From a virus (taxonomy: Duplodnaviria > Caudoviricetes), in the IMG/VR virus record IMGVR_UViG_2795386107_000001, positions 8,822-72,821 of that record: DNA of 64,000 bases. One strand, given 5' to 3'. Each line of letters starts with the position of its first letter. The first letter of the stretch is position 1. The position numbers and the translations under genes are program-made. The notes beneath the pieces are model-generated. The model was not told where the DNA came from, made no database searches, and saw nothing but the letters and a program-made list of their open reading frames with translations. Below are positions 3,881-52,839 of this stretch, one piece after another.

Positions 3881-3994
3881 GTCGGGCCTTCGTACGGGTA
3901 GACTAGTACAGCAATGAGACCAGCGAGAGCTTAGCGCTGTCGCTGACTCATCCTGCGCGGGAGAGCAACCCGCGGGCCCGAACGAAGGAACACG

Positions 3995-27498: not shown

Positions 27499-27755
27499 CC
27501 GTTGGACTCACCGCGCCGCCGGTGCCTGGCCACCGTGTACGCGGTGATCGGGTCGCCGTACCGGCTGAGAGTGTCGGCAATGGCCTTGGCGGTGACACGG
27601 TCGGAGTCCAGTGCCGCGCGGAGGGAGACCGCTACGTCATCATCTGCGACGGCCAGGAAGGCGCCGACGCTGCATTGGGGGCCCCGGTGAGTGGCGGGAG
27701 CGCCGGCGAGCGCGTCCAACTCTTCCGCGAGGCCAATGGGTTGCTTCTCGATCAC
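27480..27755 (-). CDS. Small Cys/His-containing HTH-like protein
   Basis: GTG after GGAGG; GPQCSVG..AKAIADTL..VARHRR..CRC; coupled to the phosphoesterase gene. Confidence 0.7.
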   Translation of the reverse strand: MIEKQPIGLAEELDALAGAPATHRGPQCSVGAFLAVADDDVAVSLRAALDSDRVTAKAIADTLSRYGDPITAYTVARHRRRGESNGCRCDR

Positions 27756-27835: not shown

Positions 27836-29128
27836 TCAGCCGGTCGGCTGGGTCCAGGTGCCGATGACGAACGACTCGGGGCGCGGGACCTCGAGGGCCA
27901 GGCGCTCGTCGGCACGGAAGGTGATCAGGCCCTTCTCGAAGTTGTCCGCGTTCTCCGAGGAGACGGTGACGCTGACGTTCTCCCTGTCGTGGAGCTGGGC
28001 ACCCAACCCGAAGGCGCCGATCAGGAAGTCGTCGTCCGCCATGGCCGTGGTCTCGACGACGTTGAGCCGCCAGACCTTCTTCTCCGCGCCGATGGCGACG
28101 GCGACGGCGACGCGGAACGCGCCGTTCTTGTCCTCTTCGACCTCGACGTGCTCCCACATCGTCGGGGACAGGACGATGCCGGTCGGCTCGTACTCGGCCA
28201 GGAGCGCCTTGGTGATGGCGCGCCGGATCTGGACGCTGTACTTGTCGGTCGCGAGGCCGGTGTACTGCTGGACTCCGGGGGTGTTGTAGATGCCGGTGAG
28301 GGACTGGCCGTCGCCGACGGAGTGGAGAAGGTCCCAGTCCTCCTGGTACTTGACGCCCTCGACCATGCGCCCGTTGATGAACGTCTTGAGGCGCGGCTCG
28401 TCGCTCAGGATGTTCTTATGCGCGTCGATCAGGTGGGCGACTTCGGCGACCGGGTACATCACCGGGGTGAGGGACAGCTTCGACCGCGGCGCGCGGCCCC
28501 AGGTGTCGGTGTCCGCGCCGGTTGCCGGGCTGACGCCGTCGGCGGCGTAGCGCTCCTTCACCTGTCGGGCGTTGTTGGTCCAGCCGGTCTCTCGGGCGCC
28601 GTAGAGGACGGCGTTCTTCGTCGAGGACTTCGGGAACAGGTCGCGGATGTGCCACTTGCGGTAGGCCCGCTCGGCGATGCCCAGGTTCTGGACGCTGCCG
28701 AGGGTCTGGTGCGTGACCGTGCCCGCTGACAGGGAGAAGATCGACTTCCCCTCCATCTCGGCACGGACGTACGGCCGATCGCGGAAGCCGGCCTCTGCGG
28801 CGCGCTTGAAGGAGTCGGACTCGACGAACAGGTCACCGAGCGACTTCTGCTCCATGGTCGGGGTCTGCCCGTAGTGGGTGGCCGCGGCCGGCGGGTTCTC
28901 CGGGGCGTCGAGGTACGACTTGACCTCGATCAGGCCCTGCTCGGCGTCGATGAGGGCCTTGATCTCCTGCGCCTCGCTGGAGACCTTGCGGAACTTGGTG
29001 GCCTGCTCGGTGGAGACGACGAAGCCGCCACCGTCCTCGACCTTGAATCCCTTGCTGATCTCCTCGGCCTCCGCGGCCTTCACCTGGAGCTGCCGCTGCA
29101 GTTCCTTGATGCGAGCGTTGTCGGGCAT
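27836..29128 (-). CDS. Major capsid protein (HK97 fold)
   Basis: N-terminal coiled-coil delta domain, IRDLFP, ILSDEPRLKTFINGRM..LLHSVGDG..TGI, FEKGLITFRADERLALEVPRPESFV. Confidence 0.95.
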   Translation of the reverse strand: MPDNARIKELQRQLQVKAAEAEEISKGFKVEDGGGFVVSTEQATKFRKVSSEAQEIKALIDAEQGLIEVKSYLDAPENPPAAATHYGQTPTMEQKSLGDLFVESDSFKRAAEAGFRDRPYVRAEMEGKSIFSLSAGTVTHQTLGSVQNLGIAERAYRKWHIRDLFPKSSTKNAVLYGARETGWTNNARQVKERYAADGVSPATGADTDTWGRAPRSKLSLTPVMYPVAEVAHLIDAHKNILSDEPRLKTFINGRMVEGVKYQEDWDLLHSVGDGQSLTGIYNTPGVQQYTGLATDKYSVQIRRAITKALLAEYEPTGIVLSPTMWEHVEVEEDKNGAFRVAVAVAIGAEKKVWRLNVVETTAMADDDFLIGAFGLGAQLHDRENVSVTVSSENADNFEKGLITFRADERLALEVPRPESFVIGTWTQPTG

Positions 29129-29353: not shown

Positions 29354-31549
29354 TCAGCTCTGCAGCAAGGCGAGTGCGGCCTTCACCTCGTCCGCCTCCA
29401 GCCGCACCGTGGCGGGGTCCTTCTTGTCCTGGTCGACGGCGTCCTCGGGGGCCGTGCCTTCGCTCGACGTCTCGTCCTCGGTGGGCACTTCGTCGTCGTC
29501 GCCGTCGTCGAAGGTGTACTCGTCCCACAGGTCCATGCCGGTCGGACCGGCCGCGCGGTTGGGTGCCGGGGCGGGCTGCTTCGGCGGCTGGTCGACGTCG
29601 AGTCCCTTGCGGGACAGGGCGCTGATGAGGGCGCGCACCTTGTCGCGTACGCCTTCGAGCTGGCCGGGGTTCGCGTCCGATGTGCTGATGCGGGCGGTGG
29701 CGTCGCTGAGTGCGTCGACAGTGGGCTGCACGACGCGGGCGTCGATCTCCTCGTCCTCATCTGCCTCGCGCGGGCCGTCGTCGTCATCGGGGACGACCAC
29801 GGTTGCCAGCTCCACGCGCTGCGGTTGCCCCAGCGCCACGTCGTCCGCGTCGCCGTCTCCTCCGAGCGTGTACGGGACCAGGTAGTGCTGCTCGTCTTCG
29901 CCGTCGGAGTGGACGGAGGCGATGACGTGGTCCGGGTAGGTGCCCTGGATGCATGCCCACGTGTCTTCGTCCGCGGCGAGGAGGGTGCGGACGGCTTGGC
30001 CGAGTCGGTCGCGGATCTGCTCGAACGAGGCGGGAAGGGGCTGGATCGTGTTCATGGGCTCTCCAGGGGCGGCGAGGCGGGCTTTGGCTTCGAGGACGGC
30101 GCGGTGAGCGCTCTTGCTCTCGGCGGCGTGGGTGGCGGGGTAGATCCCCAGGGCGTCTTTGTGGCGCAGGTTGCAGTAGCCCTTGGCGTTGTCCGGGCTC
30201 ATGTGGCGTCCGGCGATGGCGACGCAGCGGTTGAAGTCGCCGGGGGTGCCCCAGCCGATTTGGGCGCCGCCTTCGCCGTGGACGTACCAGTGCCGCAACT
30301 GCTCGGCGTCGCCGCGGTTCTGGTCCGTGCCCCCGGCGGCCTTGGCCTCAGCGACCATGGCGCGTGCCGACTTGTGCTCGACCTGCGATCCGTGGATGCG
30401 GGCGGCCGCCACGGCGGCCCGCGTGGACTTCTTCTCTCCGCCGAGGGCGGCGTAGGTGTTCATGACGCCGGCGGCGAACTGCTGGGCTTCGGGGCTGGGC
30501 TGTGTGCTCGGCGGGCCCTGGGGCAGGGTGGCACCGGCCAGGAGCGACCAGGGGGTGTCTCGGCACTCCGGCCGGAGCAGCGACATGTCGGGGAGGGCGG
30601 TGATGGGCCACCAGGCGGTGACCTCCGTAGCCTCGCCGTCCGGGTCGTCGGGGTTGGCCACGCGCCGCTCACCGTGGGGCCGGTTGAGCGAGACGGCCGA
30701 CTCGCTGGGGACGACCGCGACATAGCCGCGGTAGATGCCGTTCGGGGCGGTCCAGGAACCGACGATGCTTGCCGTTCCCGGCAGGTCTGCGCCGGTCTCT
30801 TCCTGCCACTCGCGCAGGGCCGCGGCGAGGGCGTCTTCGTCCTTCTCCCGGTGACCGCCGGGGAACTCCCAGGTGCCGGCTGCCGGATCGTCGTCTTCGA
30901 GGGCGCGCTGGATGAGCAGTACGCGGCCGGTGTCGGCTGCCTTGAGGGCCAGGCCCGCGACCTTGATGCGGTCCTCGTCCTTGACGGCTTCGAGTTCGAC
31001 GGGGCTCGGGGTGGCCTTGTACTCCATGCCGGGGTTGGCTGCGGCCTTGACCTCGAGGGCCCGGGTCATGGGGTGCGCGCCGTGCAGGACGGGGCTGACC
31101 TCGAAGAGGTCGAGTCGGTGGATGACGCGGACGCCGTCAGCGCGGCGGGCGGCTCCGTCAGCGGGGACGCGGTAGCCGATGGAGAACGCGGCTTCGCCGT
31201 GCTCGTACCACTGTTTGACCTGCTCGTAGGTGTCGCGGCCCTTGCTGGTGCGGCGGTTGTACTCGACGGTTGCGACCAGGGCGCCGGCTTCGGCAGGCCA
31301 GTTGGGAATCTCGGCGAACCGGGGGTCGCCGGGCATCCACTCCTCGACGGCCAGGACGACGCCGACGGCATCCTTCCATTCGTGGTGCCAGACGGCTTTG
31401 ACGCGGCGGGTGGCGAGGGTGTGAGCGAAGGCGCCGGGGACGATGAGGTCGTTGACCTCGTCGACCACACCAGTGACGGCGTAGATTGCCCGGCTGGTGC
31501 CTCGCAGGGTGCTGGGGTGTGACGATCTTGTGGGTGGAGCGCTCGGCAC
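29354..31549 (-). CDS. HK97-type prohead protease fused to NUDIX hydrolase and scaffold-like C-terminal domains
   Basis: Protease: GVVDEVNDLIVPGAF, VWHH, FSIGY, LFEVSPVLHGAHP. Intact NUDIX box GGHREKDEDALAAALREWQEETG. Then an IGWGTPGDFNRC..GYCNLRH domain and an acidic tail. Confidence 0.9.
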   Translation of the reverse strand: MPSAPPTRSSHPSTLRGTSRAIYAVTGVVDEVNDLIVPGAFAHTLATRRVKAVWHHEWKDAVGVVLAVEEWMPGDPRFAEIPNWPAEAGALVATVEYNRRTSKGRDTYEQVKQWYEHGEAAFSIGYRVPADGAARRADGVRVIHRLDLFEVSPVLHGAHPMTRALEVKAAANPGMEYKATPSPVELEAVKDEDRIKVAGLALKAADTGRVLLIQRALEDDDPAAGTWEFPGGHREKDEDALAAALREWQEETGADLPGTASIVGSWTAPNGIYRGYVAVVPSESAVSLNRPHGERRVANPDDPDGEATEVTAWWPITALPDMSLLRPECRDTPWSLLAGATLPQGPPSTQPSPEAQQFAAGVMNTYAALGGEKKSTRAAVAAARIHGSQVEHKSARAMVAEAKAAGGTDQNRGDAEQLRHWYVHGEGGAQIGWGTPGDFNRCVAIAGRHMSPDNAKGYCNLRHKDALGIYPATHAAESKSAHRAVLEAKARLAAPGEPMNTIQPLPASFEQIRDRLGQAVRTLLAADEDTWACIQGTYPDHVIASVHSDGEDEQHYLVPYTLGGDGDADDVALGQPQRVELATVVVPDDDDGPREADEDEEIDARVVQPTVDALSDATARISTSDANPGQLEGVRDKVRALISALSRKGLDVDQPPKQPAPAPNRAAGPTGMDLWDEYTFDDGDDDEVPTEDETSSEGTAPEDAVDQDKKDPATVRLEADEVKAALALLQS

Positions 31550-31588
31550 GGCGGGAAACCTCCGGCGGTGGACAGTGGGCCGCCGGGC

Positions 31589-31624
31589 ACCGTGCCGTTC
31601 GCGTCTGTCTAGTGTCCTGTGCTG
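31589..31624 (-). promoter_or_regulatory. Bipartite promoter-like motif (protease)
   Basis: CAGCACAGGACACTAG with CACGGT at the 22-nt offset. Confidence 0.65.
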
Positions 31625-31818
31625 GCCGCAGGCTCGGCCTGGGCGTCCTCAGCCTCCGAGCGGGCCATGGACCAGCCGCGCGACCAGTAGCGATAGCCGA
31701 ACTGCTGCTCCGCGTTTCCGAGGCGGTCGTACGGGCTGGCATCGCCCGGGTCGCCGGCCTGGTAGGCGGCCTTGCCCTCCTGCTGCAACCGCAGGGCGGT
31801 CGCACGGTTCAACTGCAC
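31609..31818 (-). CDS. Rmf/CrpP-fold small protein
   Basis: EGKAAYQAG..SPY..YWSRGW matches the ribosome-modulation-factor-like pattern; RBS AGGGAG. Confidence 0.7.
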   Translation of the reverse strand: MQLNRATALRLQQEGKAAYQAGDPGDASPYDRLGNAEQQFGYRYWSRGWSMARSEAEDAQAEPAASTGH

Positions 31819-31830
31819 GTCGTCAGCTCC

Positions 31831-32433
31831 CTACTGGAACATCGAGTCCTGTACGCCGCGGTCGCTCGCAGGAGCGGCCTGGGGCGGGCTGGCGGCCTCG
31901 TCGGCTTTGCTGTGCGTTCGGGTCATGTGGGCGTCGTCGACGTCGATCGCCCACGCGTCCGGGTCTGTGTAACGCCACACCTGTCCTGTCCCATCCCTCA
32001 CCCATCCGGTCAGTGTGCCGTCCGGGTCCTGATCCAGCCACGCCTGTTCGCCGTTGCTGCCGGTGTAGGAGGCGAAGGCGTTGGCCGGGTCCGTCTCGTC
32101 GCCCTCGTCGTAGGGATCGCCTGCCCACTGGCGGGCGTCGTCGGAAGGCGGTTCCGGGGCGTCGGCCGGTGGCTCGTTGCCGGGCGGTTGTGTCCCGTCG
32201 GCGGGCTGCTCCGGCGGTGCGGCCGGTTCCGGGGCGGCCGGGTCTGCTGGTGGTGCGCCCGGGTCCGTCGGGTCGGCCGGATCGCTGGGCGTCTCCTCTG
32301 CGAGCGCCCCCGGGTCGAGGTCCTCGTCGGGCGTCTCCGCGCCGGGGTCCGTGGTCTGTTCGTCGTCCTCTTCCCCGAACGGCTTGCCGCCCTTCTTGGG
32401 GAGAGCCTTGATGGCGTATCCGTATCTGGTCAC
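31831..32433 (-). CDS. Acidic Pro-rich hypothetical head-module protein (probably leaderless)
   Basis: GTG 6 nt after a CATCCT box; globular C-terminus AWLDQDPDGTLTGWVRD..VWRY. Confidence 0.7.
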   Translation of the reverse strand: MTRYGYAIKALPKKGGKPFGEEDDEQTTDPGAETPDEDLDPGALAEETPSDPADPTDPGAPPADPAAPEPAAPPEQPADGTQPPGNEPPADAPEPPSDDARQWAGDPYDEGDETDPANAFASYTGSNGEQAWLDQDPDGTLTGWVRDGTGQVWRYTDPDAWAIDVDDAHMTRTHSKADEAASPPQAAPASDRGVQDSMFQ

Positions 32434-32439
32434 GGGCGG

Positions 32440-32475
32440 AGGATGGAGGGGCGAAGCCGTTTGTGTCCCGGCCTC
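32440..32475 (-). promoter_or_regulatory. Bipartite promoter-like motif
   Basis: GAGGCCGGGACACAAAC with CATCCT at the 22-nt offset. Confidence 0.65.
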
Positions 32476-32493
32476 ACCCCGCCACCTCACGGA

Positions 32494-32523
32494 CCAAGAT
32501 CGTTCTTGCACAATTGTGCAAGC
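32494..32523. repeat. 30-bp palindromic element (copy 2, inverted)
   Basis: Exact reverse complement of 26201-26230. Confidence 0.9.
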
Positions 32524-32531
32524 CCCTCGGA

Positions 32532-32804
32532 TCAGCTCTCTGGCACGCGTGCCTGCCGGGGCGCGCCCTGCCCCTCGTCGAACACGTGGGTGTGCTCGCG
32601 GAGTACGGCGAGCACGGTCGCCTCATCACCTCCGGCCACCGTCCGCACGGGGCCGGTTGGGGACAGGGAGATGGGCTCACCCTGGTGGAGCTCCACCAGG
32701 GCCGCGGCGCGGTGCGACCCGATCACCGGGCGTTCGGCCCGCCCGGTGACCTGCACGCTGTAGGTCGCCCCGTCGTCGAACGCTCCGGTGACGGTGAATG
32801 GCAT
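32532..32804 (-). CDS. Small hypothetical protein directly after the giant gene
   Basis: ATG after GAGGAG overlapping the giant gene's stop; 90 aa. Confidence 0.7.
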   Translation of the reverse strand: MPFTVTGAFDDGATYSVQVTGRAERPVIGSHRAAALVELHQGEPISLSPTGPVRTVAGGDEATVLAVLREHTHVFDEGQGAPRQARVPES

Positions 32805-32815
32805 CAGTGCTCTCC

Positions 32816-35800
32816 TCATCGTGTGGCGAGCAGGCCCAGGAGGAACGCCCGAAGGTCGTCGTCCAGGTACCAGTCGCCGTTAAACATCGACTGAACAGAC
32901 CGCGCGAGGGTGTCACCAGTGTCCGGTTGCGTCTGCTGCCGCGACAGGATGCGGCTCAGGGCACTGCGCCGCATGCGGCGGGCGCCCGGTCGGCCGGTGT
33001 GGGTCTGGGTGAACCAGAAGATCCGCTGAGCGGCGTCCAAGTCGTCCAGGTGCTGCGCCAGATGCTGTGCGAGGGCGTACCCGGCGGTCCCGAGGCCCTC
33101 GTCGGCGAGGTCAGCGACCGTGATCCGCTGGCCGTCGGGCTCGTAGCGGCCCGCGTCGCCGTCCACAGCGGTCACACGGCGCGCGGCCGGGGTGTTGAGC
33201 CACGACCGCGGTACGAGGCGCTGCACGCCCCGTACGGCCCGCTCGGCGTCCGGGGTGCTGTCCGGGCCGAACACGATGCCGGCGTTGCCGCCGGGACCCA
33301 TGTCGCGGATCTCGGCGAGCGCGGCCGCGACCGCATCGGGTACCGCAGCGGCGTACCGGGAACGCAGGTTCTCCCACTCCCGTCGCGCGGCCGCCGCTTC
33401 CATTCGCGCCGCGGCGATCTCCACCTCGAGGTCCGGGTCGTCCGGGATGGTGGAACTGGTGCGCGCCGCCTGGAGGTTGACCAGGCGCCGCTCGGTGGTG
33501 GCCACGTAGTCGTCCGCGTGCTGGAGCGTGCCGTGCGGGTCGCTTCCGAAGTCGTCGCCGAGAGAGTCGGCGAGACGGCGGGTCACCGCCTGGTCGACGT
33601 CGCCGCCGGCCGCCCGCAGGGCAGCCATGTGGCGAAGCCCGGTCGGGCCAGGGCCACCGTCCGCGGCCTGGTCCGGGGACCAGCGGACACGGTCGCTGCG
33701 CCCCGGGAGCCGCCCGGCGGCGAGCTGCGCCCACGTCGTGGGCTGCCACCAGGTGACGCGACGCTGCGCCTGGCCGAACCGTCCGGGCTCCGGCAGGAGT
33801 CCGGCCCAGTGGGAGACCCGGGCGGCCAGGGACTCGCCATCGGCCTCGGGCAGGTCGAGCGCGCGGTGCAGGCGGGCCAGACGCCGGGACTCCGGCCAGT
33901 CACGGACACGGCGGGCGAGTCGGCCGAGGAACGCGCGGAGTCGAGCTATGCGTTCCCGGGCGTCCCGCCACTTCTCGGCGATCTTCTCGGCTCCGGCCTT
34001 CACCAGGAGCGCGATGCGCTTGGCGAGGCGGACGAGCGCCGCGACGATCCGGGCGAGCAGGCCCGGCTGACGGCCGGCCTGCGGCGACGCCGCGGCGACG
34101 CGCCGCGCAATCTGGCGGGCGGTCGCCTGCCGGGAGCCATCCATGCGCCGGGTGATGGCACGGGCGATCCTCTCGGCGTCACCCGGGTCCACGCCCGCGG
34201 CCTGGAGCTGCTGCAGCACGGCGTTCACCGCGTCGTCGACGTGTCCCGCGACGGTGCGGTTGACGTCCGCGTCGCCGTCGGTGTCCGGCCCGTTGGGGGT
34301 GCCTGCGATCCGGTCGGGGATGAGGCTGAGCAGGTCCCGGGCGCGTGCGGCGAGGTCCTCGTCGCTCTCGTCGGGCAGGGGCTCGAGGTCGTTGATGGTG
34401 CGCAGTGCTGCCCGAACCGTCGCGGTGTGGGAGTCCTGCGCTACCGCTCCGAGTGCCAGCATGGCGGCGGAGCGCTCGGGACCGTTGACAGCAGCGGCGT
34501 CGAGGGCGGCTTGAGCGTCCTCGCGTGCTGCCGTACGGGCTTCTTGCAGCGCCTCGGGGGTGAGGCGCTGGGCAATCTGCTCGCGCAGAGCGTGAATGTC
34601 GCCGGGCGGTTCGGTGCCCGCAATGGCCTCGTCGATGATGCGAACGGCAAGGCTACGGGCGTGGTCGCGGATGATCCGGTCTGCGTCGGCCTGCGGCGCC
34701 GGGTTGGGGTCGCGGTGCGCCCCGGCCGGCGGGAGGGCCGGGGAGTTAGGGCCAGCCGGCACAAGCGCGGTGTTGTCGCCCTCGGGCTGCGGCTCACCGA
34801 GCTGCCACAACGGCATCGCACCGTGGACCACACGCCGGCGCGTACGGCCGTCTTCCCCTTCCAGCAGAAGGGAACGGACTCCGCCGGGGCCGTCCTGGAC
34901 GTCGCGAACGCGGTAGACGGTCACACCGTTGCCGCGGGTGTCCGGGAGGGCGATGGTGTCGTCTTCGGCGACCTGAGAGGCGTTGGACGGTCGCGGCCGG
35001 CCGAGTTCAGCCGGAGGTGTCCGGCCAACGGCACGGTCGAGGTGATCCGCGGCGCGCAGTGCAGCACGGCCCTCGGGCGTCGACGGGTCTGCCGAGTCGC
35101 GGAGCTGCGCGGCGAGTGCGGCCGCCTGCTCCGGGGTGACCGGCAGATCCGTCGTGATGCGCACGGCGCCCTGCTGGGCGTCCAGGTCATCGTCCGGGCC
35201 GTCGGCAAGGTCCCCGATGACGTCCCGGTCGCCCGTGGTCAGTTCAGGGTCGACGGTCGGGCCGGTGACCGGCTCGACTCGGTGAGGCGGCTCGTGCACC
35301 GTGAGGTCGTCCGGCGTGTCCGGGGCGTCCTCCGGGCCGAGGTCGGGGGCGCTGCCGTCGGCACCCTGGGCCCGTGGGAGGACCGTGGCGGCGTCCACGT
35401 CGATCTGGCCGATCTCGCCCGTGGTGGTGTCGGCGTAGTCGATGGTGACCCGGTCGCCGTCCCGCTGGGTGCCGGTGACCGCCACGGTGGTGAGGGTGCC
35501 GTCGAGGTCCAGGACCACGACGTCGTCCTCCTTGAGGTCCGCGGCCGCCGGGTCGTCGAGGCCGGTCACCGGGGCGGTGGCCGGGTTGGTGTCGTCCCGG
35601 ACTTCGCCGGCGACGCGGAGGTCTCCGGCGCTGCGGGTGGTGGTGCCTTCAGCGGTGGTGATGGTGACGCGGTCGCCGTTGACCTCGTCGACGGGCCCGA
35701 GCAGCGCACCGTCGGAGTCGGTCACGATGTGGCCCGGGGTAACGCGCTGCCCGGATGCGGTCCAGCCGTCGGGACGGTCGCCGCCGGTCACCGTGAGGGT

Positions 35801-38800
35801 GGTGGGCGTCAGGCCGTCGGCGGTGTCGTCGTTGTCCCAGCGCACAGACACGGTGGTGCTGGTGGCGCCGGTGACGGTGCCTTCCCGGCTGCGGAGCCCG
35901 TCAACACCGGTGACGGTGCTGCCCGGGAACAGGCCGCGGCCGTTGCGGTCCGTGGGCACCCTGTCGGGCAGGCTGCCGGTCTGTACGGCGCTCTGGGCGC
36001 CGCTGGCCGGCGAGCCGGGCACGGTGTCGTCCGGGGCTTCAGCGCGGGCGGCGGTGGCGTTGAGCGGCGTGAAGACGTGGCCGCGCTTGCCGGTGCCGTC
36101 CGGGTTCTCCGTGACGTACGTACGCCACATGTGCTCGGTGCGGCCGTTGCGGGTGACCTCCACGCGCACCGGGCCCGTGAAGACGTACCCGGACCGCGTG
36201 ACGGCGCGCCCGTTCCTCCTCCTGCCGTCCATGCGGACCATGTCGCCGGGCACCAGGTCCGAGACCCGGGCCCAGTTCGCGGGCTGGCCGCCCACGGGCT
36301 CGGGCTCGCCCTGCGGCTCCTCGGCCGGGACGTCGGGCGTCGCAGGCTCGGGCTCCGCGGGGGCCCTGTCCGGGGTCGGCTCCGGCCGCGCGGCAGGCTC
36401 CGGGGTGCTCGTGGGCTCGGCCTGCGGGGTCGTCTCGTTGGTCGAACGGTCGTCGCGGCCGTCGTCTCTGGTGGATGCCTCGTCGGGCCGCGGGCGGCGG
36501 CGTACGACGCCCAGGTTCGGGAACGCCTCGTCGATGTTGGCGTGCTCGCCGTACTGGTTCGTCCAGGAACCCTCTGCCGGGTAGCGGTGGAGCTGCGGGT
36601 TACCGACGGCGGAGAACTCGGAGCGGTAGCGGAACGGCTCTCCCTCGCCGGTCACCGTGGCGTGCACAGTGCCCACGTACTCGTCCCGCGGAGAGATGTT
36701 CTGGCCGCGGGAGGTGGCCATGGGGAAGCTGATCTCATCGCCGGGGCGGAGGTCCGCCGGGTCAACCGGGATGGAGTAGCCGGCCTCTTCCTCCCGGGTG
36801 TTCCACTCGGCTTCCTGCTGGTTCCACGTGCGGTGGTGCAGGGCCTGCCCACGGTCGCTGTTCCACGGCTCGTAGACGTTGCCGACGCCGTTCAACCGCT
36901 CGGCGGCCTCACCGAAGAGGGTGTTGCCGTCTGCACTACGGAAGGCGCGGGCACGTTCCGCGGCGTCGGGCGCGTCCCAGGGGAACGGGTTGCCGTCCGC
37001 ATCCGTGATGCCCTCGAGGACGCGGGCAACCTCGCGGGCACGTTCGGGGTTGTGGAACCCGTCTCGGAACAGGGGCTGCATGCTGCCCGGGAGGGCCACG
37101 TTGAACCGCTGGCCGCGGCCTACGCCGGCGCGCGCTGCCTCGTTTCCGTAGATGAGCAGACGACCGCCGTCGGAGAGCTGCGTGCTTTCGGCGTCGGCGA
37201 TCTCCCCGCGCTCCTCGGGCGAGGGCTCGTCAGCGCGCTGGTCCTCCGGTACCTCGTCGAGGCGCCCATTGCGGATGTGATCCCGCAGGGCCTCCTCATC
37301 GGTGAAGCGGGGCTTGGCAGGGTCGTACGGCTCGGGCTCCGTGGTGGCGGGCTCCGCTGGGGCCTGGCCGACGTCCGCCTGCTGGCGCTGCTCCTCTTCG
37401 GCCTGTCGGCGCTGTTCCTCCTCGAAGATTTCCCGGTCTCTGCGGTCGTTGTCCCGGTACTGCAGCTTGAACTGGTTGTAGGTGACGCGGCCGCCGTTGG
37501 CGTCGTACCAGTTGATCAGCTCCTCACTGGCGTACTCCCTCCAGCGCCCGAACTTGGCCAGCTCGCCGCCGGAGAACAGTGAGCGCTCGTCGGGACGGTT
37601 GTCGCCGTACTTGTGCTTGCGGTTGAAGAAGTAGCCGTTCGTCTCCTCGATGGCCTGCTGGTAGCGGGCCTCGTCGAAGTCAGCGAACGCCGCGCGGATG
37701 ATGTCCTCTTGGGTGCGGCGGGGCCGGGTGATGTCGGCATTTCCGAAGCCCAGGGCCTCGTCCATGGCCTTGCCGCGGCGCTCGGCCTCCTCGGCGTTCT
37801 CCGGCGGGGTGTCCGGAACGGCGTTGCGGATGACCGGGTCCGGGTTGTCGCGCCGGTCCATCTCCGCCGCGACGCGCATCATGTCGTCCTGGCTGAGGGG
37901 CTGACTCACGAGCGCGTCAAGCGCATCGTCGTCAAGCTCAGTCAGGTCGGCAGGCAGTACGGGGGCGTCGGTGGTCTCCGCGGCTCGCTGCTGCTCGAAG
38001 TCGTCACGGGCAGCGTGAAGCGCGCGCTGCAGGTTGCGGCCCTCGCTGTCGCGCCACTGGCTGACGGTGCTGGGCCCCCAGGGCTGGTGCCAGTCGAAGG
38101 GCTGTCCGTCGCTGCCGGTGATCTCCTCGAAGCGACTGGCAAGGGCGCGGGCCTCCTCGGGGTTGTCGGTGCGCAGGGTCAGGCCGGGCAGGTTGGTGCC
38201 GTTGCGGGCCTGAGCGAACCGCCACAGGGTGGTGCCGTCGTCCTGCGGCTCCGGCCATGTGACCAGCCCACCGCCCGGGGAGAGAACCATGCCTTCCCGC
38301 TCAGCGGCCTGCGCGAGGGCGGCGCGCCGCTCGGGGGTGTCCTCAGCCGCGGTGAGACCTTCGCCGTTCCTCCAGGCGCGGCGAAGGGAGTCCACGTCAC
38401 CGTGACGGACCGGAGAGCGGCGGCCGCGGCCGTTGGGGGCGTGCCCCTCGCCGTCGCCACCGGTGCCGGTTGCGGCCGGAACGTTGAGGTCGGGCAGGTT
38501 CAGGTGAGGCAGGCCGGGCCCGCCGAGGCCACCAGGACCGCCGGGGCCACCGTTGCCGCCGTTGCGGCGTCGGCGACGCCTGCGCCGGTTGCGGTCGTCC
38601 TGCTCGTCCTCGTTGTCCTGGTCTTCGGCGTCCGGCTCGTCCTGCTGGTCGTCGGCGTTGTCCGGCGCGTCGGAGCTGTTGCCGTTCTCCTCATCGTCGG
38701 ACGGGGCGTCAGGGGTGTCGGCTCCGCCCCCGTCAGGGTCGGCGGCGCCGCCGTCGAGGTCACCGTCACGGCGCTGCCGGCGTTCCTCGTCGCCCTGGTC

Positions 38801-41800
38801 CTGGTCCTCCTCGCTGTCGCTGGTGTTGTCCGGGGCGTTGGCCTCGTCGCGGTTGTTCTCGTCGTCGCGGCGGTCGTTGCCGCCGTCGTCCTCGCCCCGC
38901 GCGATCCGGGCGGCGCGGCGGAACCGCTCGGCCGCGCGCTCCCCATCGGGGCCACCCAGTTCGTACATCTCCGCGAGGGAGTCGAGCCGGTCGGCGGCGT
39001 CGCGCAGCTCGGCGTCGGGGTCGTCGGAGTCCGCCGCGCGCCCCATGGCGTCGGTGACGTCGCGGATCTCTGGAAGATCGTCCCCGCCCGCTTCGTCGGT
39101 GGCCTGGCGCACCAGGCCGGACATGCGGTCGGTGCGGTCCTTGATGTCGCTCCGGCCGCTGACCGGGGTGGCCTCCGGCTCGTCGACCGCGGGCTCGTCG
39201 ACGTCGGGAGTACCGTCGGTGCCGGTCGTGCTGGTCTCGTCGACGTTGGGCTCGGAACGCTCGTACCTGTGGTTGTCGGGGATCTCCTCGTCCGGGTAGC
39301 GCAGCCGCACTTGGGCGTCGGAGTTGTAGAAGCGCTCCTCACCGTCGTTGGTGACGATGCGGGTACGGCCGCGGCCGGTACGCGCGGGCGGCTCGGCCAC
39401 GGTGTGCGTACGGCCGTCGGCGTCGGTGTACCGGTCGCCCGGCTCCAGGTCGGCGGCGTTCCGCATCTGCGCCGGACGCAGGTCGCTGGTGTCGCGGCCT
39501 TCGGCATCGGCGAACATGTCCGGCGTGCCGAACTCGTCGGCAGGCCGGACCTCCGGGTTGTCCGGGTCCGCGGTGCTGTCCGCCTGACGGGTGGTCGGCT
39601 CGTCGACGTCGAAGAGGCCGCCGGGCTCCTCCCTGGTCTGCTTGGGCTTGGGCTCCTGCTTCGGGGCGCGGCCGGCGCGGCGGGCCTCTTCCGCTTCGAG
39701 GACCTGCAGGCGGGTGCGGTCAACACCGGACAGTTCCCCGCCGTTGGCCATCTCGCGGCCCATCAGGTCCACGATCTCGTCGCGAATCTCGCCATCGTCC
39801 ATCGAGGACGGAGCCTTGGACCCCTCGGGGCGTACGGCGTCGAGCTGGTCGGACACCTCGTCCGGAGTCAGGGTGACGGTGTCGTTGCCTTCCTCGCCGT
39901 CTGCCGCGCTCTGGTCGCCGCCCTGGTCCTGGTCGTCGTTGCTGTCGTTGCTGTCGTTGCTGTCGTTGCTGTCGTCGCCGAGGTCGCCTGTGCCCGGGGT
40001 GTCGGCCGGCGGCTCGTCGTCGCCTCCGTCGCCCGCGCTGCCAGCGTCCGGGGTGTTGGTCTCCTCGGTGTCCGGCGCATCGGCGTCCGGGGTGGCGTCG
40101 GTGGAGTCGCCGCCGTTGCTCTCCCACTCCTCGCGGCGGCGGCGCAGATCGGCCGCGGCCTCGTCGATGGCCTTGCGGTAGGCGCGGTATGCGCGCACCT
40201 CGGACGGGTCGGACTCCAGCCCTTCGCCGCCTTCCAGCGTCCATGCCCACTCCAGGAGTGCGCGGTGTACCTCGATGGGGCCCGTGACCTTGAGCGTGCC
40301 CTTACGGCCCGGCTTGGCCTCCTTGAGCGCCTTCCGGGTGTCCGGGTCCTCCATGGCCGCGGTCTCGTCGACGTTGAGGAAGTCGACGAGTGCCGCCGGC
40401 ATGGTCAGCGTGACGAAGTCCTCGGGCTTGTCCCACGCGTACTTGAGCGGTTCGCCGGGCTCCTCCGCGTCCGCGGTGTCCTGGCTCTCCGTGTCGTCAG
40501 GTCGGATGCTGGCGAGGGTGTCGCTGACCTCGTCCTGGGAGAGGCGAACGGTGTCGTCGTGCTCCTGGTCGCTGTTCTCGTCGCCGAGGTCGCCGAGGTC
40601 GCCGAGGTCGCCGAGGTCGCCGGTGCTCAGGGTGTCGGCCGACTGTCCCTCGTCGCCTGTACCGCTGGCGTTGTCGGGCCCCGCGGTGTTCGTCTCCTCG
40701 GGGCCCGATGCGTCGGCGTCCGGGGTCGTGTCGGTGGAGTTGCCGTCACCGTTGTCGGTCTGCGAGGCGTCGTGCGCCGGGGGGTTGGGGGTCAGACGCG
40801 CGAGGGTGTCGCGCACCTCGTCCTCGGTGAGGTGAACGGTGTCGTCCCTCTCCGGCTCCGGGTTCTGCTCGTCCCAGCGCTGGAGGTTAGCCACGGCTTC
40901 GTCGACCGCGGCCTGCAGCGGTGCCCGCTCCTCGCGCCGCTCCTTGGCCATCGTCTCGCGGTCGTGCTTCTTGTACCGCTTCTTGTCGAGTTCGTCGGGG
41001 TCAATCTCGGGCTTGGCGTCGAGGTCGGTGATGCGGGCGACGACCTCCTCGAGCAGGTTGGCCCGTGCCCGTGCGTGGTCGATCTGCGGGGTGAGGTCTG
41101 CGGCTGCGTGTGCGGACTGGAGCAGGGCTATTTGCTCGTCCAGCTCGGGGACCTTGGCCCGGTCCGACTCCTGCAGGGCGGGCGCCTTGTCGAGAGCATT
41201 GCCAAGGCGGGTGATCATGCCCGACCCGGCGCCCTTCTTCTGGAGGTCTTCGACCGTGCGCTCAAAGTCGGAGTTCCGGAGGTCCGGGAAGCCGACGTGC
41301 GCGACGAGCCTGCCGTCCTCCTTCCGCTCCGTACGGACGCCGAAGTCCAGGCCGCGGAACTGGCCGATGACGTGCCACGGGCTCATGCCCTCGCGGTTGT
41401 GATCCAGGAGCCGGGCGGTCACCTGGCGGTGCAGCGCCTTGCCGGCGTCGGAGCGCTCGCCGTACGGGGAGCCGCCGATGGTCATGGTGAAGCGGTCGCC
41501 GGCCTCTTGGATGCGGGGCAGAGCCTGCTCGCGGCGCTGGATGCCGTCGCGGGTGGCCTGGGATTCCTGGCGCAGCTCATCGAGGGCTTCGGCGCGACGG
41601 ATACGCTCGGCGGCCTCGTTGTGCTGGTCGATCTCAAGGTCCTTGAGACGGCGGCGGGCCTTCATGAGATGACTCATGTAGGGGTTGCCGCCCATCTCGG
41701 CTTCCATGGTTTCGTAGTCGAACTCGGCGCCGTCGATCTCCTGGACGACGTCGCTGGTGTCGCCCTCCGTCGGCTCCGGCCGCTGGATGTCGACCAGGCC

Positions 41801-44800
41801 CTCGGCCTTGGCGGCGACGAACCCGGCCTTCCAGCCGTCCATGGAGCCCTTGGTCCCGAAAATGTCGATCTCGACCTCGGGGTTCTGATTGCCGTAGCGC
41901 AGGATGCGGCCGTTGCGCTGCTCCATCTGCGCCGCGCCCCAGTCGAGGTCGACGTGCGTGAGGGAGATCATGCGGTCCTGGGCGTTCATGCCCGTGCCCG
42001 CGACGGCGCTGGAACCGATCAGGACCGAGATCTCACCTTCGCGGGCCTTGCGGAACAGCTCCGTCATGTCCTCGGGCTTGCCGGACTTCTTGGCGTCCTG
42101 GACAAAGGCGATCTTGTCGGCGGGGACGCCGCCGGTGACCATGAGCTGCTTGAGTTCGGCGTAGGCGTCGAAGCCGCCCTTGTTGTCGCTGTCCGGGACG
42201 CCTTCGTTCAGGAAGATCATCTGGAGGGCGCCGGGGACGGGGTGGTCCTCGTCGCTGCCGTAAGCGACCTTGTAGACGCGGTCCTTGGTGGCGTGGTACC
42301 GCTCGATGTGCCGGTCCGCGACGGCCTTGAGCTTGTTGCCCGCGGGGGCGTTGCCGTCGACGAGCCGCGGGTCCAGGGCCACGCTGGTGCCCTCGTTGGA
42401 CACCGTGAGCATGTTGTCGTCGACCAGGGCGCCCTTGCGGGTGCGGATCTGCTGAGGCTCACCGTTGTGGATGGCGCGGCCGCGGGCGACGAGCCCCTTG
42501 AGACGCTTCTTCTGGTCCGGGGTCGCGTCGACCAGGATCAGGTTGTGGGTGCCGCCCTTGAGCTTCGGCCGGGGAATGCCGACGTCGTCGGCCCGCTTGG
42601 TGTCCGCGACCAGGCCCCACATGGTCTTCATGGCGCGCTTGTTGTGGAACTCGGAGAAGCGCTCCACGACGCGCAGGCCAGACCCGTCGGGGGCGTTCTC
42701 GATACGCAGGGTCTTGCGGCCGAAGGTGTTGGCCCACAGGTCCGGGGCGCCCGCCTTGTAGGCGTCGAGCACCCACGGCGCCGCGAACTGGAGCATGGTG
42801 AACTGCTCGCTGATGCTGTTGGACAGCGGCGTGCCGGTGGCGAGCGTGATGGTGGCGCGGCCGCCGCGGCGGCGGTGCAGGTCGGTGGTCTTCTGGTGCA
42901 GGTCGACGCCGCGGATGGACGCGGGGTCGCCGCCGGCCTCCTTGGAGCGGAAGCCAACGCCCTTGTAGCGGTGAGCCTCGTCGACGACGAAGTAGTCGAA
43001 GCCGAGGTCGTCCCAGTACGTCTCGCCCGGCTTCCGCATGGGCGCGGCGTTCTTGTTGATGTTCCGCTGGACCGTCGCGATGCGCTGCTCGATCTTCGCG
43101 ACGATGAACGGGTGGTTGGGGTTGTCGGCGTCCTCGTACTGGCGGTCAAGCTGCTCGCGCAGCGACTCCAGCTCCCGGAACTCGTACTCCTCCTGAGCCT
43201 CCGGGCTCATCTTGATGGAGCCGAAGGCCTCTTCGGTGAAGATGACCAGGTCCGGCTTGTTGGCGCGCAGCCACTCCAGCGTGCTGGAGCGCCGGTCACC
43301 GGCCAGGTCTGCCGAGGTGATCAGGTGGATATCGGCGTTCGGGTACAGGTACCGCGCTTCGTCCGCCCACTGCTTCGCCAGGTGGTTGGGCACCACGGCC
43401 ATGGGCTTTTCGATCTGCCCGGACGCCTTGAGCGCCTGGGTGCCCATGACGAGCGTTGAGGTCTTGCCGAGGCCCACCTCGTGGGCGAGGATCACGCCCC
43501 GCTCGAACTGCATCCGGGCGGCGCCGGCGAGCTGCCAGGAGTGCGGGGTCCTGTCGGGCGTGAAGCCTTCCAGGGTGGGCGACATGCCCTCGTACGAACG
43601 GACGACGTGCCCGTTCATGATGCGGTTGTAGGACTCAGTGAGGGTCGTCAGTCGCTCGGCGTTCGCCGTGGCGTACTTGGCGAACTCGGCCCGCATCTGG
43701 TCGGCCTTCTGCCGGATCAGACGGGAGGTCGTCTCGTCGACGTCCTTGCGCTTGTCGTCGTGGTAGACGGTCAGCGATCCGAAGCCGAGGACCGCGCGGG
43801 CGATCTCTACGGCGGACTTGCCCTTGGTGCCCTTCTCCGGGTTGGCCGGGACGCCGTACATGACGTTGTTGGCCTCGGGCACACGGCCGGTGTTGAGAAT
43901 CCAGCCGTACCGGTCATCGTGCGCAACGCGCAGGGTCCGGTCGCCCAGGTACTCGCGCAGGAAGCCCTGCAGCAGCTCCGGAGGCGTCCAGTGTGCGCCC
44001 ATCTCGGGCGTGAACTGGCCGATGGTCCGCTCCGGCGGCTGTACCGCCTCCAGCGCGGCCACGTTGACCGCGTACGCCGGGTCCTTCTCCGCGGCCTTGC
44101 GGGCGGCGTCGAGCTTGTCGCGGACGGCACCGGACAGGTAGGCGCTGGCCAGATCGAGGCGGCCGGTGGCCGGGTTGGTGAAGACCTCGTTACCGAGGCG
44201 CTTCAGCGCCTCCTGCGGGTCGACGTCGAGGAGGCGCGCGACTTCCCCGAGGTCCACGTCGCCGTGCGCGGCGACGACCGCGGCCAGGGCCGCCTTCGGG
44301 TCGTCGGTCGACGTCAACTGACGCCGACGGGCCGCAGCGCGCTCGGTGAAGATGCGGGAGAGGACCGGCTCACCGGTCTTGGCGTCCCACCGCTCCAGGG
44401 CGAGGACAGCCGCGGCGTCCGGGTCGGCTCGGAAGTAACCCCACGCCGTCGGGCGGCCGTTCTTGGTGCGGTGCTGGCCGGGCTTGGACAGCGGCCCGTA
44501 CTGCTCGACGTAGGCGGCGTGCAGGTCGCGGAGCTGGGCGCGGAGGGCGTCGGCGCGCTCCTCCTCGTCGTTCTTGCGGTCCAGCTCGCGCAGTTCGGCG
44601 GCGACGTCGCGGAGCTGCATGAGGTCGCGGAGCTGGGCGGTGTTGCCGTCGGCCGGGTCGATGAGGACCGGCTCAGCGCCGTTGACGTGCTGGTAGAACT
44701 GGCCGTCGTCGCCCTCGTAGAGGCGGCCGGTCCAGTCGTTGGCGTGCTTCTCCCGGGCGGTCTGCAGGTGCACCGGGGGCCGGTCGTCGCCGTCGGGGTG

Positions 44801-49957: not shown

Positions 49958-49964
49958 GCCGCGG

Positions 49965-50000
49965 ACCATGTAGAGCGCGGGTGCTTAGCGTCGCGGCCTC
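49965..50000 (-). promoter_or_regulatory. Bipartite promoter-like motif (giant gene, leaderless geometry)
   Basis: GAGGCCGCGACGCTAAG with CATGGT at the 22-nt offset; ATG 7 nt later. Confidence 0.7.
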
Positions 50001-50015
50001 GTGGCCGGGTACGGA

Positions 50016-50114
50016 CCGGCTACTTCGGCGTGAGGAGGCGGAACGGCGAGCCAGCCGGGGAATCCGAACCCGCCGACGGCGAGTGTGGATCTGCCGACCT
50101 TGCTGGTGCGGGTG
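50016..50114 (-). pseudogene. Degenerate duplicate of the 3' end of the small membrane-protein gene (diverged direct repeat of 52618-52718)
   Basis: Roughly 80% identical by eye; reads RTSKVGRSTLAVGGFGFPGWLAV versus RTSKVGRAIFAVGWFGFSGWFAI. Confidence 0.8.
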
Positions 50115-50326
50115 GGAGGGTCATGCCCCTTTCCGGATCTGACGTGGAATTCAGGTCTGAGACGAAGCCGTGCTGCCGCGCGCGTGTTCGAAGGTTGGCA
50201 ACTCTGAGACCAAGTCCGATGCCGGATGATTGGATACCGGTGTCTGGCGGTGTGGGGGGTCGTTGGCCTTTCTGTAGGCCGCAGATGCACGAACAGGCTC
50301 GGTTCGAGGGAATGGAGGGCCGGGCG

Positions 50327-51085: not shown

Positions 51086-51296
51086 CCCCGAGGCCGCTGG
51101 CTGCGGCACCTGACGCGATCGGCTGCGCGCCTATGGAGGAACCAAGTCCTCACCCGTCGCCCTGAGCGGGCACATCAGCCTGGTCGCAAAGCGCCATAAC
51201 AGCACGCACTTCGGTCTCGATGCCATGCAGTGAAGAGCCATTTCCCCGCAACACCGGTACACACCCAGGGCATCTGCCGCAAAATCGTCCCAACCA

Positions 51297-52549: not shown

Positions 52550-52621
52550 GACGCTTCGAGCCGCGACCGCATCGACACAACACCAGCTGCTGCGCGTGGC
52601 CTCGCGGAGGAATCGGGCCGG

Positions 52622-52834
52622 CTACATCGTCTCCGTGAGGATGTGGATGGCGAACCAGCCGGAGAATCCGAACCAGCCTACGGCGAAGATGGCTCTGCCG
52701 ACTTTGCTGGTGCGGGTGCGGAAGAGTCGGCGGACGTTCTCCGACAGGGTGTCCTTGTCGCGCGCGTTGGCAAGGGCAATGCCCTCTGCCACGGCGAACG
52801 CGATGGTCCATGCGATCCAGATTGCTACCCACAT
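52622..52834 (-). CDS. Small two-TM membrane protein
   Basis: MWVAIWIAW..EGIAL..DTLSENVRRLF; RBS AAGGAG overlapping the portal end. Confidence 0.75.
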   Translation of the reverse strand: MWVAIWIAWTIAFAVAEGIALANARDKDTLSENVRRLFRTRTSKVGRAIFAVGWFGFSGWFAIHILTETM

Positions 52835-52839
52835 GACAG

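What the first reader, a model, noticed from the sequence alone, without database searches (positions are those of the whole stretch)
29354..40846. TVxLxxDEVxxxL motif shared by the protease C-terminus and three sites of the giant protein: candidate capsid-loading signal
Seen: the protease fusion ends ATVRLEADEVKAALALLQS* (29354-29413). The giant protein has DTVHLTEDEVRDTLARL (~40793-40846), DTVRLSQDEVSDTLASI (~40505-40558) and DTVTLTPDEVSDQLDAV (~39833-39886), each at the end of an acidic disordered linker. Knowledge: scaffold and protease C-terminal amphipathic helices dock on the capsid interior. Inference: the giant enzyme uses copies of this helix to be packaged, which would be a transferable packaging tag.
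Basis: partly seen in the sequence, partly recalled or inferred. Interest (0 to 1): 0.85.

Follow-up and report, generated by a model that had tools for sequence, protein, structure and literature searches.

The report
Protease-tail peptide repeated in giant protein
A Streptomyces phage repeats the short tail peptide of its capsid-maturation protease three times inside a giant DNA-modifying protein encoded in its head genes, which probably marks both for loading into the capsid, though no binding has been tested.

Summary
The window is part of a 72.8-kb phage record related to Streptomyces phage Gilgamesh. TV.L..DEV occurs four times in all six frames: at the C-terminus of the protease-NUDIX fusion and at residues 3043, 3139 and 3363 of a 5717-residue DarB-like methylase-helicase protein. 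A scoring matrix trained only on protease tails picks the giant's copies at 17-26 bits, against a null maximum of 5-8 bits. In a 10-Mb Streptomyces chromosome the pattern occurs three times, all in the prophage's protease and giant.

117 of 121 protease homologues carry the peptide, 111 of them two residues from the end, after a linker that is 48% Asp/Glu. 84 of 121 giant homologues carry one to three copies; 26 more keep only the first half. AlphaFold2 predicts all four copies as short isolated helices next to disordered segments.

My best reading (about 45%) is a tethered capsid-docking helix shared by protease and cargo, possibly with a release site beside it. The rivals are protease processing sites, another shared partner, and loading through the giant's near-invariant N-terminal HPRD..GRF module.

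I rate it a new variant of known capsid-targeting signals, of moderately high interest.

The parts
29354..31549 (-). Prohead protease (Peptidase_S78) + NUDIX + helical and mixed domains + acidic linker + tail: a 731-aa fusion
   Evidence: Translation. Pfam PF04586 E 1.4e-10 and PF00293 E 3.9e-16. AF2 domains at 15-170, 195-345, 350-470 and 509-650.
29405..29581 (-). Disordered acidic linker of the protease fusion (residues 657-715)
   Evidence: pLDDT below 50. In 117 homologous tails the 30 residues upstream are 48% D/E and 1% K/R.
29357..29413 (-). Protease C-terminal peptide ATVRLEADEVKAALALLQS (helix at residues 719-730)
   Evidence: It scores 41.2 bits on the tail matrix.
32816..49969 (-). 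Giant 5717-aa polyvalent protein (DarB-like)
   Evidence: GC3 0.90. 120 homologues of 3209-6321 aa.
49829..49876 (-). N-terminal NPALHPRDSKGRFIET motif of the giant protein (rival loading signal)
   Evidence: Present in the first 150 residues of 113 of 121 giants and nowhere else in them.
41891..45382 (-). N6-adenine methylase (about aa 1530-1654) and SNF2/SF2 helicase (about aa 2156-2693) dyad
   Evidence: Pfam: SNF2-rel_dom E 5e-8, ResIII 3.7e-6, Helicase_C 1.5e-4, N6_Mtase 1.5e-3. The last two are below their curated cut-offs.
40787..40843 (-). Copy A, DTVHLTEDEVRDTLARLTP (aa 3043-3061), just after the helicase module
   Evidence: (19.4 bits). Predicted helix at segment residues 60-70.
40499..40555 (-). 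Copy B, DTVRLSQDEVSDTLASIRP (aa 3139-3157), heading an optional small-domain cassette
   Evidence: (25.7 bits). Predicted helix at 156-166 between disordered stretches.
39827..39883 (-). Copy C, DTVTLTPDEVSDQLDAVRP (aa 3363-3381), at the start of the conserved C-terminal part
   Evidence: (17.3 bits). Predicted helix at 380-389.
27836..29128 (-). Major capsid protein (430 aa from MPDNARIKEL). Residues 1-103 are a delta/scaffold-like extension before the conserved KS.G..F.ES
   Evidence: Pfam PF05065 E 5.4e-31. Translation. 84% identical to Gilgamesh gp53. Alignment consensus.
52840..55293 (-). Portal and MuF-like fusion protein
   Evidence: Pfam PF04860 E 3e-41 and PF04233 E 2.4e-5 (below cut-off). 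Gilgamesh gp46 annotation.

Best explanation
The 19-residue peptide D-T-V-x-L-x-x-D/E-E-V-x-x-x-L-x-x-hydrophobic-R/Q-S/P is a tethered docking element. It consists of a short extended stretch (V.L) and then an N-capped amphipathic helix, held on a flexible, mostly acidic linker.

Proposed steps, all inferred:
1. At the C-terminus of the HK97-type prohead protease fusion, the peptide brings the protease, with its fused NUDIX or 2H enzyme, into the assembling prohead. It does so by binding the inside of the shell, most likely the N-terminal delta (scaffold) domain of the capsid protein.
2. The giant DarB-like methylase-helicase protein carries one to three internal look-alikes at its module boundaries and uses the same site, so it is co-assembled as cargo.
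3. When the protease digests the delta domains, the receptor disappears and the cargo is free to leave with the DNA.
4. A cut within or beside the motif, comparable to the herpesvirus M-site or the end of the T4 targeting sequence, may add to the release.

Shown: the motif, its specificity, its conservation, and its predicted helix-on-linker form.
Inferred: binding, the receptor, packaging of the giant protein, and release.
For: - Specificity. The motif occurs only in these two proteins in the whole record, in 24 fetched loci L004-L028, and in a 10-Mb host chromosome (3 of 3 matches, control 0).
- Protease conservation. 117 of 121 homologues carry it near the end, and 111 of those end exactly 2 residues after the 17-mer. 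It follows a linker that varies in length and sequence.
- Giant conservation. 84 of 121 giants have 1-3 copies at 10 bits or more (141 copies), against a null maximum of 5.1 in 599,451 positions. The copies are conserved islands in indel-rich linkers. They persist in divergent IMG/VR relatives whose flanking domain is only 39-52% identical.
- Periodic pattern. The invariant positions are hydrophobic at 2, 4, 9, 13 and 16, plus D/E-E at 7-8. The positions between them vary. This is the pattern of a binding face, not of a 3-5 residue cleavage site.
- Structure. AF2 predicts the tail as helix 719-730 after a disordered linker at 657-715. It predicts copies A, B and C as 10-11 residue helices next to disordered stretches.
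- Context. The order is portal-MuF, giant, protease, then a capsid protein with an N-terminal extension and no separate scaffold gene. DarB-type dyads are virion proteins in P1 (PMC9024508 and PMC5512222 passages).
- Precedent. A protease C-terminus has been proposed as a prohead-targeting signal in SPN3US (PMC7411985, section 3.5). For HK97 (Duda 2013) the content is recalled, because the paper was not held.
- No recent copying. Synonymous codons differ between the copies.
Against: - No binding test was possible, and there are no virion proteomics for this group.
- 26 of 121 giants, including Gilgamesh gp48, keep only the first half of one copy (V.L.PDEV then NAPAAAA). They have lost the L13 and position-16 residues of the putative binding face, while their proteases keep the full tail.
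- The giant's copies never have the Lys10 that is invariant in protease tails, and they end in R-P rather than at a C-terminus.
- The giants carry a much better conserved N-terminal HPRD..GRF module that could be the real loading signal.
- Co-variation between cognate tails and copies is weak. The mean best identity is 9.39 against 8.67 of 17 positions, and 0 of 5000 shuffles reach the observed value. All of the effect comes from one clade of 13 pairs (10.0 against 7.7). The other 25 pairs show none (8.63 against 9.05).
- L-[DST]-x-x-E-V is also a generic helix capping-box and hydrophobic-staple pattern (my own knowledge).
- The delta domain is itself net acidic (18 D/E against 12 K/R), so simple charge complementarity with the acidic tag does not explain binding.
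Confidence: 0.45

Rival explanations
1. The motif is a recognition or processing site for the prohead protease. The giant polyprotein would be cut at its module boundaries after assembly, and the protease would trim its own tail. No docking is involved.
For: - The copies sit exactly at module boundaries: after the methylase-helicase or UvrD module, before an optional cassette, and before the conserved C-terminal part.
- The only part kept in all lineages is the contiguous core V.L..DEV.
- T4-type and giant-phage cargo is cut at short x-x-E sites by prohead proteases (PMC7411985 passages).
- Polyvalent proteins are thought to be processed (PMC5512222 passages).
Against: - A site 11 residues from the protease's own end would release only a small peptide, yet the helix after it is the most conserved part of the tail (K10, L13 and A14).
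- Conservation is periodic over 17 residues rather than local.
- The presumed capsid-protein maturation site (K-S before LGDLF, by analogy with HK97) does not resemble the motif, and the capsid protein has no matrix hit of 8 bits or more.
Confidence: 0.2
2. The peptide binds a shared partner other than the capsid shell. Candidates are the portal-MuF protein, DNA, the copies themselves, or a host factor. It would serve ejection, ordering or regulation rather than loading.
For: The specificity, conservation and helix-on-linker form are the same as for docking. None of them names the partner. MuF-type proteins bind portals and head contents (PMC5512222 passages).
Against: No positive evidence points to any particular partner. 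Known protease and scaffold tails act on the capsid protein (recalled).
Confidence: 0.15
3. The giant protein is loaded through its N-terminal HPRD..GRF module, or simply by co-assembly. The TV.L..DEV copies would be structural linker-end helix caps whose likeness to the protease tail has no shared function.
For: - NPALHPRDSKGRFIET is present in 113 of 121 giants and is almost invariant.
- Unchecked AI notes e1-5966457 and e1-5950382 describe HPRG..GKF-type N-terminal tags on actinophage head cargo.
- P1 DarB and the T4 internal proteins use N-terminal signals.
- The pairwise similarity of the tail to the giant is only z 3.0.
- 26 of 121 giants have a half motif only.
Against: - A generic helix cap would not be confined to two proteins in a 10-Mb genome.
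- It would not score 12-32 bits on a matrix trained on a different protein.
- It would not stay conserved inside otherwise free-drifting linkers.
Confidence: 0.15

Closest known systems
C-terminal capsid-targeting region of prohead proteases: HK97 gp4 (Duda, Oh, Hendrix 2013; title seen in reference lists, content recalled, paper not held) and SPN3US gp245 (PMC7411985, section 3.5, read)
   Same: A prohead serine protease whose C-terminal part, not its catalytic domain, is thought to bring it into the prohead. The capsid protein has an N-terminal scaffold (delta) domain and there is no separate scaffold gene.
   Different: Here the signal narrows to a 19-residue peptide on a 60-residue acidic linker. 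The protease is fused to NUDIX or 2H enzymes. The same peptide recurs inside a second, giant protein. Nothing has been measured.
T4 capsid targeting sequence of IPI-III and Alt, and the N-terminal 30-residue signal of P1 DarB (PMC7411985 and PMC9024508, passages read)
   Same: Short peptides that address enzymes to the inside of a phage head for co-injection. P1 DarB is also a methylase-helicase protein.
   Different: Those signals are N-terminal. T4's binds a separate scaffold core and is cut off at L/I-x-E. The motif here is C-terminal or internal, is present in several copies, and is shared with the protease.
Phage polyvalent proteins with the DarB-type methylase-helicase dyad (Iyer et al. 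2017, PMC5512222, passages read)
   Same: A giant multi-domain protein encoded among the head genes of a portal-terminase phage. It has an adenine methylase followed by an SNF2-type helicase, and the modules are swappable (methylase-SNF2, UvrD or none among 120 homologues).
   Different: The passages I read describe no loading peptide and no link to the protease tail.
Encapsulin cargo-loading peptides
   Same: A short conserved peptide on a flexible linker docks diverse cargo on the inner face of an HK97-fold shell.
   Different: Encapsulins are not viruses and have no portal, protease or delta domain. The peptide sequences are unrelated.
Herpesvirus protease/scaffold C-terminal tail with its M-site (recalled; the homology of phage prohead proteases with assemblin is cited in the reference list of PMC7411985)
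   Same: Two proteins, protease and scaffold, share one C-terminal capsid-binding tail. A nearby cleavage site releases them.
   Different: In herpesviruses the sharing comes from nested in-frame genes. Here two unrelated genes carry look-alike peptides, and the cargo is an enzyme, not a scaffold.

Membership tests
HK97-type prohead protease with a C-terminal targeting region | N-terminal Peptidase_S78 catalytic domain | tested here: met
   PF04586 E 1.4e-10, 42 bits against a cut-off of 21. The confident AF2 domain is at 15-170.
HK97-type prohead protease with a C-terminal targeting region | Capsid protein with an N-terminal delta/scaffold domain and no separate scaffold gene between protease and capsid genes | tested here: met
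   A 103-residue extension precedes the conserved KS.G..F.ES. Only 225 bases lie between the protease stop codon and the capsid protein start.
HK97-type prohead protease with a C-terminal targeting region | The C-terminal region is necessary or sufficient for encapsidation | not testable with these tools
   This needs prohead assembly assays.
T4-type capsid targeting sequence | An N-terminal leader of 10-20 residues | tested here: not met
   The motif is C-terminal in the protease and internal in the giant (aa 3043, 3139, 3363).
T4-type capsid targeting sequence | Ends in an L/I-x-E prohead-protease site and is removed | tested here: inconclusive
   The motif holds L-x-x-D/E-E, not L-x-E. Cleavage cannot be seen from sequence.
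DarB-like methylase-helicase polyvalent protein | An adenine methylase domain followed by an SF2/SNF2 helicase in one polypeptide | tested here: met
   N6_Mtase E 1.5e-3 (18.4 bits, below the cut-off of 20.4) at aa 1530-1654. SNF2-rel_dom E 5e-8 (above its cut-off) at aa 2156-2249. Helicase_C at aa 2631-2693. The methylase hit is weak.
DarB-like methylase-helicase polyvalent protein | Encoded with the head/late genes of a portal-terminase phage | tested here: met
   It lies between the portal-MuF and protease/capsid genes. The order is the same in Gilgamesh.
DarB-like methylase-helicase polyvalent protein | Present in the virion and protects incoming DNA | not testable with these tools
   No proteomics were found (0 papers).
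Encapsulin cargo-loading peptide | The shell is an encapsulin (HK97 fold without portal, tail or protease) | tested here: not met
   Portal, protease, tail tube and tape-measure-size genes are present. This is an analogy only.

The most novel reading that the evidence does not exclude
A portable 19-residue 'protease-tail' helix is the general loading address of this phage lineage. It docks on the capsid protein's delta domain. It brings in both the protease, with its fused NUDIX or 2H enzyme, and a roughly 620-kDa DarB-like enzyme held by up to three tethers. It is released automatically when the protease destroys its receptor. If so, any protein could be loaded into these capsids by adding the linker and peptide, and the rule 'cargo copies the protease tail' may hold in other actinophages (the unchecked note e1-6087035 reports a parallel case).
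Probability: 0.35. Interest if true: 0.8.

Novelty: new variant of a known kind. Interest (0 to 1): 0.64.

Why it matters
How giant polyvalent anti-defence proteins get into HK97-like capsids is unknown. The known signals (T4 CTS, P1 DarB) are N-terminal and specific to their lineages.

A short, sharply defined peptide shared by the protease and its putative cargo gives a direct handle on the question. It predicts a receptor on the delta domain. It suggests a self-clearing release mechanism. It could also serve as a tag for loading foreign proteins into phage capsids.

The family is large: more than 100 Streptomyces elements, many of them on contigs of about 125-135 kb. A cultured member exists (Gilgamesh, on S. 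lividans), so the idea can be tested with ordinary phage genetics and proteomics.

Tried and rejected
Nothing was folded, and I did not attempt docking in any other way.
- Distant relatives. In Gordonia phage ChisanaKitsune and Brevibacterium phage Cantare the protease tail resembles none of the 12 and 7 neighbouring head-module proteins (z 1.4 or less). The matrix also finds nothing there. The motif belongs to the Gilgamesh-like lineage only.
- Fifteen IMG/VR loci fetched with a divergent protease show the tail but no internal copy within the 10 kb upstream. For 5 of these records I searched the whole record. Three of the 5 hold the copy-C region further upstream, and the 2 without a match are 39-43% complete fragments. 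I read 2 of the 3 and both have copies. The third, L029, printed nothing because no frame of that locus met the script's filter of at most one stop codon.
- A second IMG/VR scan with P0101 returned no locus.
- A search for naturally split forms, in which the helicase module would end in copy A as a true C-terminal tail, gave 7 hits. I examined 5. Three have frameshift-like out-of-frame ends or look like fragments. Two are long C-terminal portions of giants that keep the normal C-terminus. None is a clean split.
- Recent gene conversion between the copies is rejected, because synonymous codons differ.
- A C-terminal degradation tag of the ssrA type was considered and dropped. The internal copies cannot be C-terminal degrons, and the tails do not end in LAA (reasoning).
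- PHROGs and Pfam give nothing for the giant protein outside the methylase-helicase part.
- Literature searches (listings only unless stated otherwise) found no description of this motif.
- Duda 2013 could not be read.
- I opened no supplementary files.
Full report
**What the window is.** The window is bases 8822-72821 of a single 72,821-base virus record. It has about 70% G+C. Its late genes lie on the minus strand. In transcription order they are:
- a portal-MuF fusion (52840-55293);
- a 5717-residue ORF (32816-49969);
- small ORFs;
- a 731-residue fusion of an HK97-type prohead protease (Peptidase_S78) with a NUDIX domain (29354-31549);
- the major capsid protein (27836-29128);
- an exonuclease-like gene, head-tail adaptor, tail tube and tape-measure-size genes.

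The nearest named relative is Streptomyces phage Gilgamesh (129 kb). Its capsid protein is 84% identical and its protease fusion 61% identical, and it has the same gene order.

The giant protein carries an N6-adenine methylase signature and an SNF2-type helicase. This is the 'methylase-helicase dyad' of P1 DarB-like polyvalent proteins (PMC5512222, passages).

**The observation.** All four peptides are present at the stated places.
- TV.L..DEV matches only these four sites in six frames of the window and of the whole record.
- I built a 17-residue scoring matrix from protease tails alone: 98 unique tails from 116 regex-defined instances among 121 proteases.
- That matrix scores the giant's copies at 19.4, 25.7 and 17.3 bits. 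The best of 598,409 reversed-translation positions scores 8.4.
- In the 10-Mb Streptomyces chromosome that holds locus L009, the back-translated pattern matches three times. All three are in that prophage's protease tail and giant protein. A reversed control pattern matches nowhere.
- A plain pairwise alignment of the tail against the giant is only marginal, at z 3.0. The case rests on the family profile and on the repetition.
- The DNA of the four copies differs at synonymous positions, so they are not recent copies of each other.

**Conservation in proteases.** I retrieved 120 homologues of the protease fusion. All those that carry an organism name are from Streptomyces. Many lie on contigs of about 125-135 kb. 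They are fused either to NUDIX or to a 2H/LigT domain.
- Counting the window's protein, 117 of 121 carry the peptide near the end.
- 111 of those end exactly two residues after the 17-mer.
- The peptide follows a linker of variable length whose last 30 residues are 48% Asp/Glu and 1% Lys/Arg.
- The exceptions look frameshifted (P0015, P0118), extended (P0073, P0074) or divergent (P0098, P0101, P0119, P0121).

**Conservation in giants.** I retrieved 120 homologues of the giant protein, 3209-6321 residues long. Their central cargo is methylase-SNF2, a UvrD helicase, or neither.
- Counting the window's protein, 84 of 121 have one (42), two (27) or three (15) copies at 10 bits or more, 141 copies in all. 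The null maximum is 5.1 in 599,451 positions.
- The internal consensus is D-T-V-[TRH]-L-[SDT]-x-[DE]-E-V-x-x-x-L-[DA]-x-[IVL]-R-P.
- Of the 37 giants below threshold, 26 keep only the first half at the copy-C site (V.L.PDEV followed by NAPAAAA), as Gilgamesh gp48 does.
- Nine of the others have sub-threshold copies, and two have degenerate ones.
- Copy A always follows the inserted helicase module. Copy B heads an optional small-domain cassette. Copy C opens the conserved C-terminal part.
- In an alignment with eight loci the copies are conserved islands in indel-rich linkers.
- Two divergent IMG/VR relatives, whose flanking domain is 39% and 52% identical, still carry recognisable copies. One has two in tandem.

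**Structure.**
- AlphaFold2 on a 112-sequence alignment models the protease fusion as protease (15-170), NUDIX (195-345), a helical region (350-470), a mixed domain (509-650), a disordered linker (657-715, pLDDT below 50) and a terminal helix (719-730).
- On a shallow 9-sequence alignment of giant residues 2990-3620, copies A, B and C each come out as a 10-11 residue helix with pLDDT of about 50-75. B and C lie between disordered stretches. A lies after a long helix and before a disordered stretch.
- The invariant positions are hydrophobic (2, 4, 9, 13, 16) plus the acidic pair at 7-8, and the positions between them vary. This fits one binding face of an extended-strand-plus-helix element.

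**Mechanism.** The best-supported reading is a tethered docking peptide that brings the protease, and by imitation the giant protein, to the inner surface of the assembling shell.
- The likely receptor is the capsid protein's delta domain. This phage has a 103-residue N-terminal extension on the capsid protein and no scaffold gene.
- Digestion of the delta domain would then free the cargo.
- The precedents are the proposed C-terminal targeting signal of the SPN3US protease (PMC7411985, section 3.5), the HK97 protease (recalled; the paper was not held), the N-terminal signals of T4 internal proteins and P1 DarB, and, from memory, encapsulin cargo peptides and the herpesvirus scaffold tail.
- Binding, the receptor and packaging of the giant protein are all inferred.

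**Evidence against, and rivals.**
- The half-motif giants (26 of 121) have lost the helix's hydrophobic positions, although their proteases keep the full tail.
- The giant's copies never carry the tail's invariant Lys10.
- The copies lie at module boundaries, which fits protease processing sites as well. However, the presumed capsid-protein maturation site (K-S) does not resemble the motif.
- Giants carry a near-invariant N-terminal NPALHPRDSKGRFIET module (113 of 121). Unchecked notes of this scan describe HPRG..GKF-type modules as a widespread head-cargo tag in actinophages, so loading may not depend on the TV.L..DEV copies.
- I tested co-variation on 49 protease-giant pairs. 38 pairs had a copy of 8 bits or more. 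Cognate pairs beat non-cognate ones (9.39 against 8.67 identities of 17; 0 of 5000 shuffles reach this). The whole effect comes from one clade of 13 pairs, and the other 25 pairs show none. It therefore counts as about one evolutionary event.
- More distant phages (Gordonia, Brevibacterium) show no tail-cargo likeness.

**Verdict.**
- I put about 45% on docking or loading (with or without an adjacent release cut), 20% on processing sites only, 15% on another shared partner, and 15% on no shared function with N-terminal loading.
- It is a new variant of known capsid-targeting signals.
- It is worth a bench test, because a cultured relative exists and the motif is short and sharply defined.

Noticed in passing
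window 49829-49876 (-): The giant protein starts with a near-invariant NPALHPRDSKGRFIET motif followed by a small beta-rich stretch. The motif is present in 113 of 121 homologues and only near the N-terminus. It resembles the HPRG..GKF cargo tag described in unchecked notes of this scan.
   Followed up: partly
window 29354-31549 (-), and P0003-P0122: The protease fusion carries a swappable enzyme between the protease and the tail. It is NUDIX in some elements and a 2H/LigT phosphoesterase in others (precomputed Pfam labels). If the whole fusion enters the capsid, these could be pre-packaged enzymes that degrade nucleotide signals.
   Followed up: no
tables: Many homologous elements sit on contigs of about 122-136 kb in Streptomyces assemblies, and a few are labelled plasmid. 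Others lie inside chromosomes, and Gilgamesh (129 kb) encodes a tyrosine integrase. This suggests a large family of temperate or plasmid-like phages. The window's own record, at 72.8 kb, may be a fragment.
   Followed up: no
L002 5208-9205 and L003 7662-10784: In Gordonia phage ChisanaKitsune and Brevibacterium phage Cantare, head-module proteins (a VIP2-like ADP-ribosyltransferase, an HNH protein and a 1040-aa protein) share an N-terminal motif of the type VR.V..(Y/F)WG.PYGTPITPG. This is a different candidate cargo tag.
   Followed up: no
window 49985-52840: About 2.8 kb between the portal-MuF gene and the giant gene has lower G+C (0.64). It has no ORF with the GC3 signature of the neighbouring genes and no Pfam or PHROG hit. 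Gilgamesh has only a 246-base gene there.
   Followed up: partly
window 31612-31830 (-): A small ORF gives a weak ribosome-modulation-factor hit (PF04957, E 0.0097, below the cut-off). Its Gilgamesh counterpart gp51 is annotated the same way. It sits just upstream of the protease gene.
   Followed up: no
window 32816-49969 (-), about aa 225-290, 395-450, 3950-4050 and 4270-4350: By eye, the giant protein holds several copies of a module of about 70-100 residues, of the form ...G.W.L.A.G.....F.T..EA..FA. It occurs near the N-terminus and again in the C-terminal third. Its function is unknown.
   Followed up: no
window 26236-27507 (-): An exonuclease/metallophosphoesterase-like gene (PHROG 284, E 4e-57) lies directly after the capsid gene inside the head module, as in Gilgamesh gp55.
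   Followed up: no
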